Below are positions 5,996 through 39,278 of a stretch of 39,893 nt of DNA, in pieces. A program made the translations under genes and the position numbers. Each line of letters opens with the position of its first letter. Position 1 is the first letter of the stretch. Under the pieces are notes generated by a model. The model did not search any database. It saw only the letters and a program-made list of their open reading frames with translations, and was not told the DNA's origin. The DNA is from a virus. The stretch is taken from UHGV virus genome UHGV-0204626. One strand, given 5' to 3'.

Positions 5996-6166
5996 TCAGA
6001 ATGGACATGGCCCAAGGAAATAACGCTGATTTAATACTTCAGTCTTTGCCGCATTCAAAAATACGCGAACACCTTCACGATCTCCCTTCTGGCGATACAT
6101 TAACGCCTGCTGCGTGTACATGCGCCTCTGTAACTTGCTCTCCTTCACTGTGGTTGCAAGTGACAT
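5996..6166 (-). CDS. Hypothetical small protein (56 aa)
   Basis: Manually found ORF with a strong ribosome-binding site (GAAGGAGATATTC-ATG), between kil and the recombinase. An alternative overlapping ORF in another frame (6075-6245, MSFTDNWSDEEF...) is coupled to the kil stop; only one is likely real. Confidence 0.3.
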   Translation of the reverse strand: MSLATTVKESKLQRRMYTQQALMYRQKGDREGVRVFLNAAKTEVLNQRYFLGPCPF

Positions 6167-6241: not shown

Positions 6242-6394
6242 TCATTTCCTGCGATACCATGGAAGGTTGATAGCTGATTTCATCTCTTTATTTGCTTCAA
6301 GCCACATTTTGGAATCACCAATAAATCTGGCTATTACTGCTTTGTTTTGTGCCGCACGAAGCATCTGGTGATTGATGGCTATTTCATTGCGCAT
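6242..6394 (-). CDS. kil: Kil-like host-killing / cell-division inhibitor protein
   Basis: Manually found 50-aa ORF; the segment AAQNKAVIARFIGDSKMWLEA resembles the lambda Kil core (…FTIATFIGDEKMFREA…), and it sits immediately downstream of cIII as in lambda. Confidence 0.5.
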   Translation of the reverse strand: MRNEIAINHQMLRAAQNKAVIARFIGDSKMWLEANKEMKSAINLPWYRRK

Positions 6395-6510
6395 AATAAG
6401 ACCTCAACTCTTTTCCATCCGTCACGTAATTTACGGGTGATTCGTTCAAGTAAAGATTCATTTAGTTGGAAGGCACCCATGCGAGCGCCTCCCGCGATTG
6501 CGTAAATCAT
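6379..6510 (-). CDS. cIII: cIII-like protease inhibitor (FtsH inhibitor)
   Basis: Manually found 43-aa ORF (MIYAIAGGARMGAFQLNESLLERITRKLRDGWKRVEVLLCAMK) carrying the conserved cIII core ESLLERITRKLRDGWKR; ribosome-binding site AAGGAA upstream. Confidence 0.75.
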   Translation of the reverse strand: MIYAIAGGARMGAFQLNESLLERITRKLRDGWKRVEVLLCAMK

Positions 6511-6534
6511 GGGTGGTTCCTTATGTTGGTTTTA

Positions 6535-7500
6535 TTAGTAGGTTATTTTTGTTGCGAATACTTCGCCTTTTACGATGGCTGTTATGATATTTTTAGCAAC
6601 ATCTTCTGATGCGACAACCTTGATAAGGTCAGCAAGTATTTTGTTATTTACTTCTTTCCGGTGAGCTTTATCCTTTGCTCTACGCTCTTCTTCGTCCTTG
6701 ATTCTTTTTTCTTCTGCTATTCTGGCTTGCTCTTTTGCTTCAGCCTCGCGCAGGATTCGTTCTGCCTCCTCCTGTGCTTTACGGCGTTCTGCTTCAATTG
6801 CCGCATGCTTTTCTCTTTCAGCTCGTTCTGCCTCTTTTGCTTCGCGCTGTGCTCGTTGCTCGGCTTCAATGCGTTCACGCTCTGCACGTTCCGCTGCGGC
6901 CTTAGCTTCTGCTTCTCGCCTTGCTGCTGCTTCAATTTCGGCTTTTGCCTTTGCTTCGGCTTCAGCTCTGGCTTTCTCTTCAGCTTCTCTTTTTAAGCGT
7001 TCTTCATGCTCTCGCTTTTCCTGCTCAGCTTTGAGTCTTGCCTCTTCTCTTTGGCGGTCAAATTCTCGATCCATCAAAATCGCTATTTCATGGTCAGACT
7101 CAATTTGCTTTGCGAGAGCTTCGGCTGCTGCCTTAGCTTCTTCTTCGGCTTTAATCCGCGCCTGTTCCTCTTCATAATCAGTAAGAGGCTGGCGTGCCTT
7201 GGCTTTCAGTTCATCAAGGCGATCGCGCACTGTCTTGCGGTTGTTATCAATTAGCTTTGGAATTTCCTTCAGTTCAGCAACAAGGTCTTTGCCAAGACCA
7301 TCGAGATATGTTTTCGTCTGCGCAACTTTATACGCCAGAGAAGCGATCTCCTTTCTGCCCTTTGCCGTTGTGATATCAGGCACAAAGGACATAACTTCAC
7401 GTTCAACCTTTTGAAGGATTTCTTCAATCTGGTCGGCAGACTGAAATACAGTCATTGCATTTGCTTTTTCAATAACAACTAAATCTGTTACTTCACTCAT
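6535..7500 (-). CDS. ER/K-rich coiled-coil protein of unknown function
   Basis: Long ORF (6535-7554 in the track); the likely start is the Met at 7500, preceded by GGAGGA. A structured N-terminal ~130 aa is followed by ~150 aa of near-pure E/A/K/R repeats (EAKAKAEIEAAARREAEAKAAAERAERERIEAEQRAQREAKEAERAEREK...) and a short C-terminal domain. Confidence 0.7.
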   Translation of the reverse strand: MSEVTDLVVIEKANAMTVFQSADQIEEILQKVEREVMSFVPDITTAKGRKEIASLAYKVAQTKTYLDGLGKDLVAELKEIPKLIDNNRKTVRDRLDELKAKARQPLTDYEEEQARIKAEEEAKAAAEALAKQIESDHEIAILMDREFDRQREEARLKAEQEKREHEERLKREAEEKARAEAEAKAKAEIEAAARREAEAKAAAERAERERIEAEQRAQREAKEAERAEREKHAAIEAERRKAQEEAERILREAEAKEQARIAEEKRIKDEEERRAKDKAHRKEVNNKILADLIKVVASEDVAKNIITAIVKGEVFATKITY

Positions 7501-7643
7501 ATATCCTCCGTCAAAAAAATTGCCCTCACACTGGAGGGCAAAGAAGATTTCCAATAATCAGAACAAGTCGGCTCCTGTTTAGTTACGAGCGACATTGCTC
7601 CGTGTATTCACTCGTTGGAATGAATACACAGTGCTTACTCGTA

Positions 7644-8114
7644 CTAATAAAATACCCAATTTTCTGTTTCTTGGTTGTGCCCAAAGTTATATTCAATATC
7701 TGGTGTTGATGTATCAATATTCTTCATCCCATCAACAAGAGTTGATACAACAGCCAAATCTTGTTTGATTCTCATCAAATGGTATTTCTTCCGGCGCAAT
7801 AAACTTTCAATGGCAAGTTTCTTCGTCGGGAATGCAAAAGATCTTTCTGCATTTTTTGCTACTTTCTTAATTGCATATCTATTTCTCCTTTGTTTCCATT
7901 CCTGTAACCACTGATTTGGTGCTGGTTTAAAATTAACAATCCAATGCGCAGGAACCAACCATGCATAATGCTCTGTCTGATGAAAAGCTATATATTGAAG
8001 TGCGAATATTTTGATTCCATCTTCTTCAACTGTCGCTTGGAATCTCCAGAAAACAGGCATTCCATCATGTTCAGTTTCTGATTCAGGAAAAGGTACGCTC
8101 CATGATTTTGTCAT
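7644..8114 (-). CDS. Hypothetical protein (156 aa), accessory gene in the ral/sieB position
   Basis: ORF immediately downstream of the N-like gene in the leftward operon, with ribosome-binding site GAGGTGA. The local DNA is visibly AT-rich compared with its neighbours. I do not recognise the protein. Confidence 0.7.
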   Translation of the reverse strand: MTKSWSVPFPESETEHDGMPVFWRFQATVEEDGIKIFALQYIAFHQTEHYAWLVPAHWIVNFKPAPNQWLQEWKQRRNRYAIKKVAKNAERSFAFPTKKLAIESLLRRKKYHLMRIKQDLAVVSTLVDGMKNIDTSTPDIEYNFGHNQETENWVFY

Positions 8115-8122
8115 ATCTCACC

Positions 8123-8422
8123 TCAAATAAGTGGTTTGCTGCCTAATTTCATTTTCTGGCGACCAACACAAGTCACACCCATTTCACTGCGTGGCTTGCG
8201 GTAGTAAATACGGTTCTGTTTACGCTCGACTTCTTCTGCCTTCTTGCAGCGAAGGCTTCCGAGTGATGCTGCTTTATCTGCTCTGACGCAACCAGAGAGC
8301 TTTAGCGCAATTTTTCGCGCCAGTCGCTGTTCTTGCATCGCCTGTTCACGTTGAGCCTGTCTGCGTGCTCTGCGGCGATTTCTGGTGTTATCGTCAGCCA
8401 GATATGTAATGACTACTGTCAT
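8123..8422 (-). CDS. N: N-like transcription antitermination protein
   Basis: Arginine-rich motif near the N-terminus (DDNTRNRRRARRQAQREQ) like the lambda N RNA-binding motif. Start placed at the internal Met (MTVVITYLADD) preceded by GGAGGT; it is the first gene downstream of nutL. Confidence 0.7.
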   Translation of the reverse strand: MTVVITYLADDNTRNRRRARRQAQREQAMQEQRLARKIALKLSGCVRADKAASLGSLRCKKAEEVERKQNRIYYRKPRSEMGVTCVGRQKMKLGSKPLI

Positions 8423-8462
8423 GTTGACCTCCGGGTAGGTGCACATCCTTGTGTGTCGATGA

Positions 8463-8582
8463 TTATTTGTTTTTGCGTTGCCACATCCAGTCATCTACTT
8501 CAGACCAGATAGTGAAACCGAAGCCGATGGCGAATGTGGTAACTAAACCACCGAGAATTGGGTTGGTCATGATGTCTAACAT
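8463..8582 (-). CDS. Hypothetical small hydrophobic peptide (39 aa)
   Basis: Manually found ORF (MLDIMTNPILGGLVTTFAIGFGFTIWSEVDDWMWQRKNK) with ribosome-binding site GAGGA 7 nt upstream; predicted single transmembrane segment; lies between nutL and N. Confidence 0.3.
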   Translation of the reverse strand: MLDIMTNPILGGLVTTFAIGFGFTIWSEVDDWMWQRKNK

Positions 8583-8752
8583 TTTCTGTTCCTCAGATGA
8601 TTAGCTTTGGTGGTGTGGTAGGTGGGAGACCCATTTCGACCCGCTTCGTCCGACTTCAATTCGGCAATAGTCCCGCAGGCCTCGCCGCTTTACGTGCGAC
8701 ATATTCCCGTCCATGAACCCTTCACCACACCCCAAAGCCAACTACTCTTTGG

Positions 8753-8796
8753 TTCCCGCATTTCGGCGGGACAATCCCATCAATGTTAAAGAGCCT
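8753..8796 (-). promoter_or_regulatory. nutL (boxA plus boxB hairpin)
   Basis: On the minus strand: boxA-like GCTCTTTAACA, then 13 nt, then the hairpin CCCGC-cgaaat-GCGGG. The same boxA and an identical boxB occur at nutR on the plus strand. Confidence 0.6.
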
Positions 8797-8834
8797 GCCA
8801 ATCTGTTCCGTTTGGCTTCCAGCGTCCTGCTGAT

Positions 8835-8905
8835 GGCTTAAATTTAAGATCTCTTTAATTAATGGTCAAGGGTATTTTTGAAGAAAACTTAAATTTTCTT
8901 TCGTA
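8835..8905 (-). promoter_or_regulatory. Probable OL/pL operator-promoter region
   Basis: Contains near-palindromic ATTTAAGA...CTTTAAT sites resembling those between c2 and cro; it lies upstream of nutL and N. Exact -35/-10 not resolved. Confidence 0.4.
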
Positions 8906-8930
8906 ACTTAAGTTTGGCTTTGATTTTTAA

Positions 8931-8958
8931 AGGAAATAAAAAAAGGGGCGAATGCCCC
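8931..8958 (-). terminator. Rho-independent terminator after c2
   Basis: GGGGC-attc-GCCCC hairpin followed by a T-run on the minus strand, immediately after the c2 stop codon. Confidence 0.6.
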
Positions 8959-8959
8959 C

Positions 8960-9610
8960 TTATGGAAGGTTTGCTAGTTTTGCATCGACAACTACGCCGA
9001 TGATTTTGCAGTTTCCGTTGATCTCGATCATCGGATATTGTGGGTTAAGTGGTTTTAGAAACTTCCTGCCTGCATCAATAACTAACTTCTTGAAAGTTGC
9101 CTCGTTTTCTCCTTCGAGCTTTGCAACTACCAGTTTCCCGTTACGCGGCTCTACTTCAGGATCGACGAGTATTATCATTCCTTCAGGGATACTGAGACCG
9201 GCCGGAGCCGTCATTGAGTCTCCCTTCACGTCCAACCAAAACGAATCTTCTGAACAGTCTACGGTTGTATCGTACCAGTTATCTATTGCACGCTTATGAT
9301 ATGGTTCTACAGCTTCCATCCAGCATCCTGCGCTCACCCAGCTAATCAGAGGGTATGACCCTCTTGGATCATGCCTACTGTGATAGGCAATGTTTGAAAG
9401 ACTTTCCTCTCCTTTCATCAGATAGTCAGGGGAACACTTCAACGCATTAGCCAGGGCGAGAAGATTCTCTCCATTTGGCTCTGTCTCAGAGCGTTCCCAC
9501 TGAGATATGGCAACATTAGACACGCCGACCATCTTTCCAAGTGCGGACTGCCTGATCTTGAGTTCTTTTCTCCGAGCGCGAATGCGCTCTCCCATCAATT
9601 GAGTTTTCAT
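8960..9610 (-). CDS. c2: c2 (CI-type) repressor, LexA/S24-family
   Basis: 216-aa ORF that matches my memory of the P22 c2 repressor almost residue for residue: N-terminal HTH (IRQSALGKMVGVSNVAISQWER) and C-terminal self-cleavage domain (...GDSMTAPAGLSIPEGMIILVDPE...KLANLP). Confidence 0.95.
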   Translation of the reverse strand: MKTQLMGERIRARRKELKIRQSALGKMVGVSNVAISQWERSETEPNGENLLALANALKCSPDYLMKGEESLSNIAYHSRHDPRGSYPLISWVSAGCWMEAVEPYHKRAIDNWYDTTVDCSEDSFWLDVKGDSMTAPAGLSIPEGMIILVDPEVEPRNGKLVVAKLEGENEATFKKLVIDAGRKFLKPLNPQYPMIEINGNCKIIGVVVDAKLANLP

Positions 9611-9690
9611 AGTTAAGACATCTTAAATAAACTTGACTTAAGATTCCTTTAGTGGATAATTTAAGTGTTCTTTAATTTCGGAGCGAGTCT
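9611..9690. promoter_or_regulatory. OR operator region with divergent pRM/pR promoters
   Basis: Palindrome TTAAGAcaTCTTAA (9613-9626) and near-palindrome ATTTAAGtgttCTTTAAT (about 9657-9677); candidate pR -35 TTGACT (9633-9638) and -10 GATAAT (9655-9660); sits between divergent c2 and cro. Confidence 0.65.
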
Positions 9691-9876
9691 ATGTACAAGA
9701 AAGATGTTATCGACCACTTCGGAACCCAGCGTGCTGTAGCTAAAGCGTTAGGCATTAGCGACGCAGCAGTCTCTCAGTGGAAGGAAGTCATCCCAGAGAA
9801 AGACGCCTATCGACTGGAAGTCGTTACAGCTGGCGCCCTGAAGTATCAAGAAAGCGCTTACCGCAAAGCGGCATAA
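9691..9876 (+). CDS. cro: Cro repressor
   Basis: 61-aa ORF (MYKKDVIDHFGTQRAVAKALGISDAAVSQWKEVIPEKDAYRLEVVTAGALKYQESAYRKAA), near-identical to my memory of P22 Cro; divergent from c2. Confidence 0.95.
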   Translation: MYKKDVIDHFGTQRAVAKALGISDAAVSQWKEVIPEKDAYRLEVVTAGALKYQESAYRKAA

Positions 9877-36807: not shown

Positions 36808-39225
36808 ATGACAGACATTACAGCCAATGTGATCGTATCAATGCCTTCGCAACTCTTCACTATGGCGCGTTCTTTTAAAGCAGTAGCCAATGGCAAAATT
36901 TATATCGGTAAAATTGACACTGACCCGGTAAATCCTGATAACCAGATTCAGGTCTATGTTGAGAACGAAGATGGTTCTCACGTTCCTGTTGCACAGCCAA
37001 TCGTCATCAATGCCGCTGGGTATCCAGTATATAACGGACAGATTGCCAAATTCGTAACTGTGCAAGGCCATTCTATGGCTGTTTATGATGCGTATGGTGC
37101 GCAGCAGTTCTATTTTCCTAATGTGCTGAAGTATGACCCTGATCAGTTACGTCAGCAATTAGAAGACCCATATGGTGCGGAAAAATACCCTGAATTACAA
37201 ATAGCCAGATGGATAGATGATGGAGATGTAAGGGGGTGGGGGTTAAAACCAGGCTATTATTTTGATAATAGTTCTGTATGGGAAAATCTGTTAAATTCTG
37301 GACGCAAAGATTTTGTTGTGCCTTCTGGTGTTTTCAGATTTTCTAACGGAATTGATATACCAGGAGACTTTAGATTTATAGGGCAGGGCTCTCCTATTCT
37401 TGGTTTTGGCACAGATGATGATAAGCATTTTTTGTCTGAAGGAATTAAGCAAAACATGCCGGGTTCATCATTTATATTTTCTGGAAAAGGGACAAAAGAA
37501 GCCACGGCGTACAATCGCAATGACCAATTTTCAAGCGTAAGGTATTGTGTGCGAGTTATGTCACCAGAGTATGGTTCTAGTGGAGCCGTATTACGTGGTA
37601 TTGCAATAATTCAGGACATGGTCTGCTTTGATGGTGATGGTATTCCAACAACCCCTAATAATGATATGCGTTCAGATTATGAGTGTGGTGTTTATTACGA
37701 CGACTCTGCAAGAAATCTTCAGGAGGATGTTTGTGTATTCGGATACTTTTCAAAAGCAGGTACAATAATTCAGTCAAAGCAAGGAAACGATGACCCTGAT
37801 TACAATACCATTACTGGTGGGTCAACTATGGGGAGAGTCGGTTTAGCAATTCTTGGTTCAAACACTGGGCCTGCAAGTTATGGTCTCAGCGGAACTAGAG
37901 TAGATAAATGTGGTATTTATACCCTTGATCACCACAGTCGTGCATCAATGTCTCATGAAGGGCTTGTTTCTTATTACTCTAGCGCAAACACATGGCGATG
38001 CCTTTATATAGATGGTGATGTTAATGCGACATCCGCTGAAATAAATGGGCATTACTTTTATGGCTGTGAGTTTAGAACCAGAGCTAATCATGCATTAGAA
38101 TTTGATCACGCATCCAACATCCAGTTTTATGGTGGCGTGGTAGAGCAATCCCCTTATGGTATTACAAATTCAGATATTCCGACTTTTATTGGTTCTGAGA
38201 ATGTAAAGAGAGGCGTTGGTTTTTATGGCGTGCGCATGAATTATATTTCTCAGATATTTAATGACAATTTTGCTGGAGTGATTCCTGTAAAAATAATAGT
38301 TTCAGGCGATCCGCTAAACGGTAGATTTGGAGTTGTAGGTAAAGACCCAGCAGGCGGTTATACCGTTGCAATTCTTGGCTCTGATGGGAATATTGGTGAC
38401 GCATCAATTCAGTTTACGAAGAATGCTGCTGATGGGTCTACAGGATGGAAAGTGATGATGGATGCAAGCTCCGACAGACTATTGGTCAGCAAGGATGGAG
38501 AAACCATGACGTCACTCACTGAGACAGGAATGTACACTGTATCGGCTCCATCTGGTTCTGATGCTATGCTTGGCCTGCTCAGTAATGGCAACGCTACATC
38601 TTGGTTCATGAGAACACAATACAACAGTGTAGGTCAATTACAGTTCAGACATGGTGGGTCTGGAGCTACTCCAGCAATGCAAATAGCAACATCAGGGGGA
38701 ATCACTCCTGGAGCTGATGCCACTTCAAATATAGGTAGCGCATCACTACGATATAACATTGGTTATTTTGCCGGAGGAACCCAGTCAAGCTCTGATGCAA
38801 GACTTAAGGATCCGATAAGAGAAATGACAGATTCTGAAAAGTCAGCAGCTAAAGAAATAGGAGAAATGATTGGGTTTTGGACATGGATTGATGATGACTC
38901 AAAGCGTTTGCATGCAGGAATAACAGTTCAATCAGTTATATCTGTATTAGAAAAACATGGATTAAATTGGAAGAATTATTCATTTATAGGTTTTGATGAA
39001 TGGGATGACATATATGATGATGTAGTTAAAGACATCGAAGTTGAAGATGCGAATGGTAATAAAAAAATAATATCGGTTAATTCTGGAGAGAAAAGGCTTG
39101 TAAAAAAAGCAGGGAATCTTTTTCAATTTAGAGACCAAGAATTAGACAGATTTATAATGAGAGGGTTATCAGAAAGGATATCTGATATTGAAGATTTATT
39201 GATTAAAAAAGTTATTAAACAATAA
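36808..39225 (+). CDS. Tailspike protein (P22 gp9-type head-binding domain, divergent receptor-binding domain, C-terminal chaperone-like domain)
   Basis: 805-aa ORF; the first ~110 aa ([43 protein letters not shown]...[13 protein letters not shown]...NVLKYDPDQ) match the P22 tailspike head-binding domain; the central region is Gly-rich (beta-helix-like); the C-terminal ~145 aa begin with [10 protein letters not shown]. Confidence 0.9.
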
Positions 39226-39278
39226 TACAACAACAAAGCTTTGCACTGGATTGCAAGGCTTTGTGCTCTTCGATAGTT

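What the first reader, a model, noticed from the sequence alone, without database searches (positions are those of the whole stretch)
7644..8114. AT-rich 156-aa gene directly downstream of N, in the ral/sieB anti-restriction and exclusion slot
This is the first gene after the N-like antiterminator in the pL operon. In lambda and P22 that position carries ral, sieB/esc or other host-interaction genes. The gene is much more AT-rich than its neighbours and encodes a soluble, basic protein that I do not recognise.
Basis: partly seen in the sequence, partly recalled or inferred. Interest (0 to 1): 0.6.

Follow-up and report, generated by a model that had tools for sequence, protein, structure and literature searches.

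The report
Unknown early gene in ral slot
This is a real phage gene of unknown function, already seen (as "hypothetical protein") in phages 933W and HK97. It sits exactly where related phages carry the anti-restriction gene ral, so it is a good but untested candidate for a host-interaction or counter-defence function.

Summary
A 156-aa ORF lies at 7644..8114 on the minus strand, 8 nt after the stop of an N-like antiterminator. Its GC is 36% against 47% for the window, and the protein is basic (pI 9.1).

It is 100% identical to 933W ST933Wp19 and 99.4% to HK97 gp45 (phrog_1636, unknown function). About 11% of complete E. coli genomes carry it, always as "hypothetical". It has no Pfam, NCBIfam, PADLOC or PDB sequence match.

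The "ral slot" reading is directly supported. A 64-nt 5' flank and a 120-nt 3' flank (long hairpin plus intrinsic terminator) are about 98% identical in phages that carry orf28-ral, an 83-aa ORF or other cargo instead. In 100 IMG/VR slots I found 26 cargo combinations; this gene and ral almost never co-occur.

The function is not established. My best guess is an immediate-early, non-catalytic binder used for counter-defence or host takeover (about 0.4). Verdict: a known but uncharacterised family, moderately interesting.

The parts
7644..8114 (-). The gene: a 156-aa protein of the HK97 gp45 / 933W ST933Wp19 family (phrog_1636). It is the cargo of the slot.
   Evidence: ORF list. phrog_1636 E=2.7e-112 over the full length. 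100% identity to 933W and 99.4% to HK97. Conserved family. AF2 model pLDDT 95.7.
8112..8175 (-). Conserved 5' flank of the slot. It encodes the last 17 codons of the lambda-type N C-terminus (VTCVGRQKMKLGSKPLI*), the SD GAGGTGA that overlaps the N stop, and the cargo's ATG. Homology to other phages ends at the ATG.
   Evidence: blastn of the window against phage 2851 and HK544, 98.4-98.6%. Three-way alignment with 933W and HK97. N C-terminus comparison.
8123..8422 (-). N-like antiterminator, probably 99 aa from ATG 8422 with SD GGAGG. It carries an arginine-rich stretch, NRRRARRQAQREQ.
   Evidence: phrog_271 E=1.7e-36; Pfam N_peptide is below threshold at 17.5 bits. Sequence. C-terminal homology to lambda and HK544 N.
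7514..7634 (-). Conserved 3' flank of the slot. It has a long RNA hairpin (main stem 7600-7631) followed by an intrinsic terminator. The same segment lies between ral and ea10 in lambda.
   Evidence: blastn 98-99% to lambda, HK544, 2851 and 933W. RNA fold -47.7 kcal/mol, z=-4.94. Lambda map.
7520..7541 (-). Intrinsic terminator (8-bp GC-rich stem plus T7), the first one downstream of pL. The gene therefore lies in the promoter-proximal transcription unit that also holds N.
   Evidence: Terminator scan. The same site is annotated 'terminator, putative' after gene 45 in HK97. The same hairpin is found in lambda.
8841..8869 (-). pL-like promoter (TTGACC-17-TAAATT), downstream of the cI terminator. 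No other minus-strand promoter-like site was found between it and the gene.
   Evidence: Promoter scan. Consensus match only.
6535..7500 (-). The next gene, downstream of the terminator: a 321-aa coiled-coil protein (Sf6 gp33-like, annotated 'TolA', phrog_1376), followed by cIII and kil. This is context, not part of the cargo.

Best explanation
The ORF is a translated, non-essential accessory gene of the HK97 gp45 / 933W p19 family. It is one of many interchangeable cargoes of the lambdoid slot between the end of N and the first intrinsic terminator of the pL operon.

Shown: it shares its transcription unit with N. Its start is 8 nt after the N stop, and its SD overlaps that stop. It therefore lies upstream of the terminator that N antitermination has to overcome.

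Inferred: it is made from pL immediately on infection or induction, independently of N.

Predicted: the product is an 18.6-kDa soluble protein with a confidently modelled alpha/beta fold that has no solved analogue. It has an acidic N-terminal three-stranded sheet, a very basic central beta-beta-helix segment (residues 75-120, net +12, carrying the family motif K-K/R-I/V-x-K...RFAFxTKxxAxxSLxxRK), a 33-residue helix, and an acidic aromatic C-terminal tail. No catalytic motif was recognised.

Inferred mechanism: it acts stoichiometrically, binding a nucleic acid or a nucleic-acid-handling host complex early in infection. The most likely purpose is to blunt a host defence, making it a functional alternative to orf28-Ral. 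A broader host-takeover role is the other possibility within this reading.
For: - Real and conserved.
- Clean cassette swap in near-isogenic backgrounds. HK544 has the same N C-terminus, the same terminator flank and the same downstream Sf6 gp33-like, cIII and kil genes, but carries orf28-ral instead.
- The slot is hypervariable. In 100 IMG/VR slots there are 26 cargo combinations, with inserts of 216-1466 nt.
- Near mutual exclusion with ral: 32 slots have the gene, 35 have ral, 1 has both. Dereplicated, Fisher p=8.7e-5.
- Independent of N allele: 16 slots behind H-19B-type N and 14 behind lambda-C-terminus-type N. This argues against an N-specific cofactor role.
- The only cargoes of this slot with known activities concern host defence. 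Ral is anti-type I R-M, and the 107-aa orf184 triggers the gop-beta-cII abortive system (preprint 10.1101/2023.04.06.535777).
- Low GC is typical of exchanged accessory genes.
- Relatives elsewhere sit at or near the start of early operons, or as a lone opposite-strand gene among tail genes, as morons do. A 58%-identical Cronobacter homologue is again between N and cIII.
- Confident model without a solved analogue, and structural relatives only among uncharacterised phage proteins, including virulent phages.
Against: There is no functional evidence at all. It has no match to any anti-defence, defence or regulator family.

The exclusion with ral could be purely architectural: both cassettes are fused to the same conserved ATG. 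It could also be inflated by related prophages in the sample.

The protein is basic, unlike the DNA-mimic anti-restriction proteins.

Promoter and terminator calls are consensus scans, and N-independent expression was not measured.

The protein was not in the 200-gene functional screen of accessory regions. Several other cargoes of this slot that were in that library are not among its named hits.
Confidence: 0.4

Rival explanations
1. It is a prophage-benefit gene: a superinfection-exclusion or defence protein (like sieB, rex or other lambdoid morons), or a protein that mainly matters as a trigger of host abortive-infection systems.
For: The same region of lambda and P22 carries sieB/esc (lambda map; HK140 annotation). 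A membrane-protein cargo (phrog_3054) is common in the slot. Another cargo, orf184, is known only as a trigger of gop-beta-cII. About 11% of complete E. coli genomes keep the gene intact in prophages, with up to 4 copies.
Against: No promoter-like site of its own lies between pL and the gene, so it should be repressed in a lysogen. It has no PADLOC match above noise and no membrane segment. Structural relatives occur in virulent phages.
Confidence: 0.15
2. It is a nucleic-acid-binding factor serving the phage's own early programme, for example modulating transcription, termination or RNA processing of the pL transcript, or assisting recombination or replication. That would make it a semi-housekeeping function rather than an arms-race one.
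Against: Close relatives that keep the same flanks and hairpin do without it (HK544, lambda, 2851). It assorts independently of N type. Its position differs in Pectobacterium, where it is next to xis-int, and in other phages. The fold echoes are far below significance.
Confidence: 0.25
3. It is a host-killing or growth-arrest factor, like Kil or other early lambdoid toxic genes. It would shut down a host process without targeting a defence system.
For: It is an immediate-early gene repressed in the lysogen. It is small, has no enzymatic motif, and lies in an operon that also carries kil and cIII.
Against: No similarity to any known inhibitor. No direct indication of toxicity. The gene is maintained intact in many prophages.
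Confidence: 0.1
4. The ORF is not a functional protein gene. The segment would act as RNA or DNA (a spacer or structured leader), or be a decaying remnant.
For: AT-rich DNA, and no annotation beyond 'hypothetical' anywhere.
Against: Protein-level conservation holds down to 20-25% identity across 87 representative clusters, with a conserved motif. Co-evolution in that alignment is enough for a pLDDT 95.7 model. It has a good SD, no premature stops in 36 copies and no Rfam hit.
Confidence: 0.02

Closest known systems
HK97 gp45 / 933W ST933Wp19 (NP_049479) / phi24B vb_24B_11c / H-19B ORF after N; PHROG phrog_1636
   Same: The same protein at 99-100% identity and the same position after N. Full-length HMM match.
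   Different: Nothing differs except the N allele upstream. Here the lambda-type N C-terminus reads into the flank, leaving an 8-nt gap. In 933W and HK97 the flank is a 58-nt non-coding remnant. No function is recorded for any member.
Lambda Ral with orf28, restriction alleviation (phrog_1055)
   Same: They occupy the identical slot between identical flanks and lie in the same promoter-proximal transcription unit. The two are nearly mutually exclusive across slots. Both are small, non-enzymatic, non-essential early proteins.
   Different: No sequence similarity. Ral is 66 aa and Cys-rich, this protein is 156 aa. The ral cassette has its own weak terminator-like hairpin. Ral's activity, enhancing type I methylation, is untested for this protein.
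orf184 of Silas et al. 2023 (AFM76385.1), the trigger of the gop-beta-cII abortive system
   Same: Another cargo of the same slot: the 107-aa MEALVVERSEDGYW protein, found in classes 12 and 23 of my census. It shows that the slot's cargo interacts with host immunity.
   Different: Unrelated sequence (phrog_1372). It is acidic, and its phenotype is known.
DNA-mimic anti-restriction proteins (T7 Ocr, ArdA)
   Same: The logic of being the first gene expressed on entry.
   Different: Those proteins are strongly acidic (pI about 4, as quoted in the preprint text). This one has pI 9.07 and a +12 basic segment. No Pfam match.
SieB/Esc superinfection exclusion (lambda, P22)
   Same: The same general region downstream of N.
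   Different: I found no PHROG or Pfam link to a SieB family. This protein has no hydrophobic segment and no promoter-like site of its own. That SieB has membrane segments and its own promoter is from memory.

Membership tests
HK97 gp45 / 933W p19 family (phrog_1636) | Full-length sequence match to the family profile | tested here: met
   E=2.7e-112 over residues 1-156 of a 156-position profile. 100% and 99.4% identity to the 933W and HK97 proteins.
HK97 gp45 / 933W p19 family (phrog_1636) | Located directly downstream of N and upstream of the first pL terminator | tested here: met
Cargo of the lambdoid N-to-terminator accessory region (the 'ral' accessory region) | Variable content between conserved flanks in otherwise related phages | tested here: met
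   Flanks are about 98% identical and cargo differs. 26 cargo combinations in 100 slots.
Cargo of the lambdoid N-to-terminator accessory region (the 'ral' accessory region) | Dispensable: close relatives lack it | tested here: met
   HK544, lambda and 2851 lack it. 68 of 100 slots lack it.
Ral (restriction alleviation) | Sequence membership in the Ral family (phrog_1055) | tested here: not met
   No hit to phrog_1055 or any Ral model. The Ral cargo itself scores 1.7e-49 to phrog_1055.
Ral (restriction alleviation) | Alleviates type I restriction or enhances modification | not testable with these tools
   Needs plating of unmodified phage on EcoKI/EcoBI hosts that express the gene.
DNA-mimic anti-restriction proteins (Ocr/ArdA) | Strongly acidic surface (pI about 4) and a family profile match | tested here: not met
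   pI 9.07. No Pfam or PDB sequence hit.
SieB/Esc exclusion proteins | Profile match to a SieB family; membrane segments; own promoter active in the lysogen | tested here: not met
   No such family among the hits. No hydrophobic segment, and the model is globular. No promoter-like site upstream (consensus scan only).
Known anti-phage defence systems (PADLOC) | Match to a defence-system protein model | tested here: not met
   Only a noise-level hit: Cas1_II, E=0.018, 12 bits.
AP2-like, Tudor/KOW-like or dsRBD-like nucleic-acid-binding folds | Significant structural superposition on a solved member | tested here: inconclusive

The most novel reading that the evidence does not exclude
The family is a new class of phage counter-defence protein with a previously unseen fold. 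It would be spread across temperate and virulent phages of several bacterial phyla, and would act immediately on genome entry by binding a nucleic acid or a defence complex through its basic beta-beta-helix segment. In lambdoid phages it would be the functional alternative to orf28-Ral.
Probability: 0.3. Interest if true: 0.7.

Novelty: new member of a known kind. Interest (0 to 1): 0.45.

Why it matters
The gene is in about one in nine complete E. coli genomes. It is also in the best-studied Shiga-toxin phages (933W, H-19B, phi24B) and in HK97, yet it has no assigned function.

This work places it precisely. It is a cargo of a defined exchange slot whose only characterised cargoes deal with host immunity, and it is almost never found together with ral. 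That makes it a cheap, well-posed experimental target: swap the cassette between near-isogenic phages, or express it in trans.

If it proves to be a counter-defence or defence factor, it would add a new fold to that repertoire. It could also bear on how Stx phages spread between E. coli strains. If it has no phenotype, it remains one of many unexplained lambdoid accessory genes.

Tried and rejected
**Database searches of the protein that found nothing useful**
- Pfam, NCBIfam and PADLOC scans of the protein.
- Pfam scan of 41 family members.
- PDB sequence searches with the single sequence and with the 94-sequence profile.

**Structure**
- The first AF2 model, built from 20 close homologues, was poor (pLDDT 60) and I did not use it.
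- The afdb50 library was not available.
- All BFVD matches are uncharacterised proteins.

**Apparent domain fusions**
- The apparent fusions in the representative search (P0066, 940 aa; P0080, 444 aa) look like repeat or low-complexity artefacts.

**Literature**
- Searches for HK97 gp45, NP_049479, vb_24B_11c and phrog_1636 returned nothing relevant.
- I suspected the gene might be orf184 of Silas et al. Reading that paper's AlphaFold file showed orf184 is a different cargo of the same slot.
- The gene's sequence is absent from their library table and from the supplements of the 2025 paper.

**RNA**
- Rfam found no RNA family in 6300-9700.

**Readings rejected**
- A non-coding or remnant reading, because of the family conservation.
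- An N-specific cofactor role, because the gene assorts with both N types.

Full report
**1. Observation**

The ORF exists as described: 7644..8114 on the minus strand, ATG start, 156 aa.

Read on the minus strand, the region runs as follows.
- cI-type repressor (8960-9610) with its terminator.
- A pL-like promoter (8869-8841).
- A long leader shared with 933W and HK97.
- A 39-aa membrane-type ORF (8463-8582).
- An N-like gene, probably starting at ATG 8422 and stopping at 8123.
- The gene.
- A long hairpin and an intrinsic terminator (7541-7520).
- A 321-aa coiled-coil gene, then cIII, kil, an Arf-like gene, a single-strand annealing protein and ssb.

The N-like assignment rests on three results. 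It matches phrog_271 at E=1.7e-36. It carries an arginine-rich motif. Its C-terminal 35 residues are 57% identical to the C-terminus of lambda N and 83% identical to that of HK544 N.

The gene's ATG is 8 nt after the N stop, and that stop lies inside the gene's Shine-Dalgarno sequence GAGGTGA.

GC is 36.3% against 47.0% for the window, the 1.2 percentile of 471-nt windows. The protein has pI 9.07 and no hydrophobic segment.

**2. It is a real protein gene, and a known one**

The protein is 100% identical to the hypothetical protein after N in 933W (ST933Wp19). The same protein is in phi24B, Min27, BP-4795 and many Stx1 and Stx2 phages. It is 99.4% identical to HK97 gp45 and to the unannotated ORF of H-19B.

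It matches phrog_1636 (unknown function) end to end. 598 of 5426 complete E. coli genomes carry it, with up to four copies, always annotated "hypothetical protein". All cluster members carry the same kind of name.

Homologues of 55-85% identity occur in Cronobacter, Pectobacterium, Brenneria, Rosenbergiella, a Salmonella phage and metagenomes. They share 40 invariant positions.

An exhaustive profile search found 87 representative clusters. Most are 130-150 aa and share a motif close to K-[KR]-[IV]-x-K...S-R-F-A-F-x-T-K-x-x-A-x-x-S-L-x-x-R-K-x-x-Q-L-x-H-L-K-R-D.

None of the family has a Pfam, NCBIfam or PADLOC assignment or a PDB sequence relative.

**3. Structure**

With only close homologues the AlphaFold2 model was poor (pLDDT 60). 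With the 94-sequence alignment it became confident (pLDDT 95.7, pTM 0.83).

The model has these elements:
- three long antiparallel strands (19-30, 33-46, 50-55);
- two short helices;
- a short strand (83-86);
- a 33-residue helix (98-130);
- an extended C-terminal tail carrying conserved aromatic residues.

The charge is segregated: residues 1-60 net -5, residues 75-120 net +12, and the tail net -4.

In BFVD there are 14 matches at E<1e-3. All are uncharacterised phage proteins, from Erwinia, Achromobacter, Delftia, Rhizobium, Sinorhizobium, Cellulophaga and Tenacibaculum phages.

As far as these libraries go, this is a phage-specific fold with no solved or characterised representative. The AlphaFold database library was not available.

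**4. The slot**

Aligning the window with 933W and HK97 shows that identity starts about 50 nt before the window's N stop. It runs through the gene and ends just after the terminator. The N genes themselves are unrelated.

Pairwise comparison with HK544, phage 2851 and lambda sharpens this.
- The 5' flank (window 8112-8175) is 98% identical and stops exactly at the cargo's ATG.
- The 3' flank (7514-7634) is 98-99% identical and starts 10 nt after the stop codon.
- Between the flanks, HK544 and lambda carry orf28 (a 28-aa acidic peptide) plus ral.
- Phage 2851 carries an unrelated 83-aa ORF there.

HK544 also shares the downstream coiled-coil gene, cIII and kil with the window. The two phages therefore differ here by a clean cassette swap.

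The 5' flank encodes the C-terminus of lambda-type N proteins. In 933W and HK97, whose H-19B-type N stops just before it, the same 58 nt survive as non-coding sequence.

The 3' flank folds into a long hairpin followed by the terminator (-47.7 kcal/mol, z=-4.94). In lambda it lies between ral and ea10. From memory that is the position usually given for tL1; HK97's record annotates the site as a putative terminator.

**5. Census of the slot**

I scanned IMG/VR for a 26-mer of the 5' flank.

Inserts range from 216 to 1466 nt. They fall into 29 sequence classes, or 26 combinations of 12 recognisable cargo proteins.
- The gene is present in 32 slots, and alone in 29 of them.
- ral is present in 35 slots.
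- Both are present in 1 slot (L091), and neither in 34.
- After removing identical inserts the counts are 24, 30, 1 and 30 of 83 (Fisher p=8.7e-5).

The gene follows H-19B-type N in 16 slots and lambda-C-terminus-type N in 14.

Of the other cargoes only Ral has an annotated function in PHROGs.

Caveats: the sample is truncated, it requires an exact 26-mer, it is not corrected for phylogeny, and both cassettes join the same ATG.

**6. Literature**

I found no paper on the protein itself.

Silas et al. (bioRxiv 10.1101/2023.04.06.535777) describe an accessory region containing ral. They report that orf184 from that region triggers the gop-beta-cII abortive system. Their AlphaFold file and library table show that orf184 is the 107-aa MEALVVERSEDGYW protein, one of the cargo classes in my census.

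Their library also included three other cargoes of this slot: UDP0047, UDP0057 and UDP0060. The gene studied here is not in their table, so it is untested.

**7. Context elsewhere**

- A 58%-identical Cronobacter homologue again lies between N and cIII.
- A Pectobacterium homologue lies next to xis-int.
- In Salmonella phage NX263 it is the first gene of an early operon.
- In a Vibrio phage and in metagenomic phages it sits at or near the head of early or replication modules.
- In one contig it is a lone opposite-strand gene among tail genes.

This is how a mobile accessory gene behaves, not a fixed core function.

**8. Interpretation**

Shown:
- it is a conserved, real gene;
- it is a member of a known but uncharacterised family;
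- it is the cargo of a defined exchange slot, in the same promoter-proximal unit as N;
- close relatives do without it;
- the model is confident and has no solved analogue.

Inferred:
- immediate-early, N-independent expression, with possible translational coupling to N;
- stoichiometric binding through the basic segment;
- a counter-defence or host-takeover role.

I put about 0.4 on the counter-defence or host-takeover reading. The rivals are a phage-programme nucleic-acid-binding factor (0.25), exclusion, defence or trigger (0.15), host toxicity (0.1) and non-coding (0.02).

**9. Verdict**

The finding is not new as a sequence, since it has been annotated as hypothetical since the 933W and HK97 genomes. 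Its function remains open.

It is a well-defined, moderately interesting candidate. What this analysis adds is the exact slot anatomy, the near-exclusion with ral, and a confident orphan-fold model.

Noticed in passing
window 8463-8582 (-): A 39-aa ORF with a hydrophobic core (MLDIMTNPILGGLVTTFAIGFGFTIWSEVDDWMWQRKNK) and a good SD sits between the shared pL leader and N. It is absent at this place in 933W and HK97, and it matches phrog_7482 (unknown function, E=3e-23).
   Followed up: partly
window 8112-8175 (-); L001 2443-2500 (933W): The 58-nt 'intergenic' sequence between N and the gene in 933W and HK97 is a non-coding remnant of the 3' end of a lambda-type N gene. In the window and in HK544 the same sequence is read as the N C-terminus, VTCVGRQKMKLGSKPLI. 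It acts as a recombination linker between N alleles and cargo.
   Followed up: yes
window 7580-7646 (-): A long, nearly perfect RNA hairpin (about 14-bp main stem plus an outer stem) lies just after the stop codon and before the terminator. It is conserved at 98-99% in lambda (between ral and ea10), HK544, 933W and P22-like Salmonella phages. The fold z-score is -4.9 and there is no Rfam family. It might be an RNA processing or stability element of the pL transcript.
   Followed up: partly
window 8600-8800 (-): The pL leader between the promoter and N is shared with 933W and HK97, although the N coding sequence that follows differs. Whether the nut site and the arginine-rich motif of this N match each other was not examined.
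   Followed up: no
window 5996-6166 (-): The 56-aa ORF MSLATTVKESKLQRR... is identical to UDP0168 (AFH20475.1) in the accessory-gene library of Silas et al. 2023. It matches phrog_1723.
   Followed up: partly
window 6535-7500 (-): A 321-aa protein with an extremely charged E/A/K/R-rich coiled-coil centre (phrog_1376; annotated 'TolA' or Sf6 gp33-like in other phages) follows the terminator. In 933W and lambda, ea10/ssb takes its place, so this is a second variable position in the operon.
   Followed up: no
IMG/VR loci L012-L131 (slot between the flanks): The slot holds at least a dozen other cargo proteins. All but Ral have no annotated function: an 83-aa protein (phrog_2471), 121-149-aa membrane proteins (phrog_3054), a 207-aa protein (phrog_1965), and 98-, 62-, 108-, 67- and 46-aa proteins. 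Nine slots carry orf28 without ral.
   Followed up: partly
window about 38790-39260: The lowest-GC stretch of the window (31.6% over 471 nt) lies at the 3' end of an 805-aa ORF (36808-39225, +) and just beyond it. I did not examine it.
   Followed up: no
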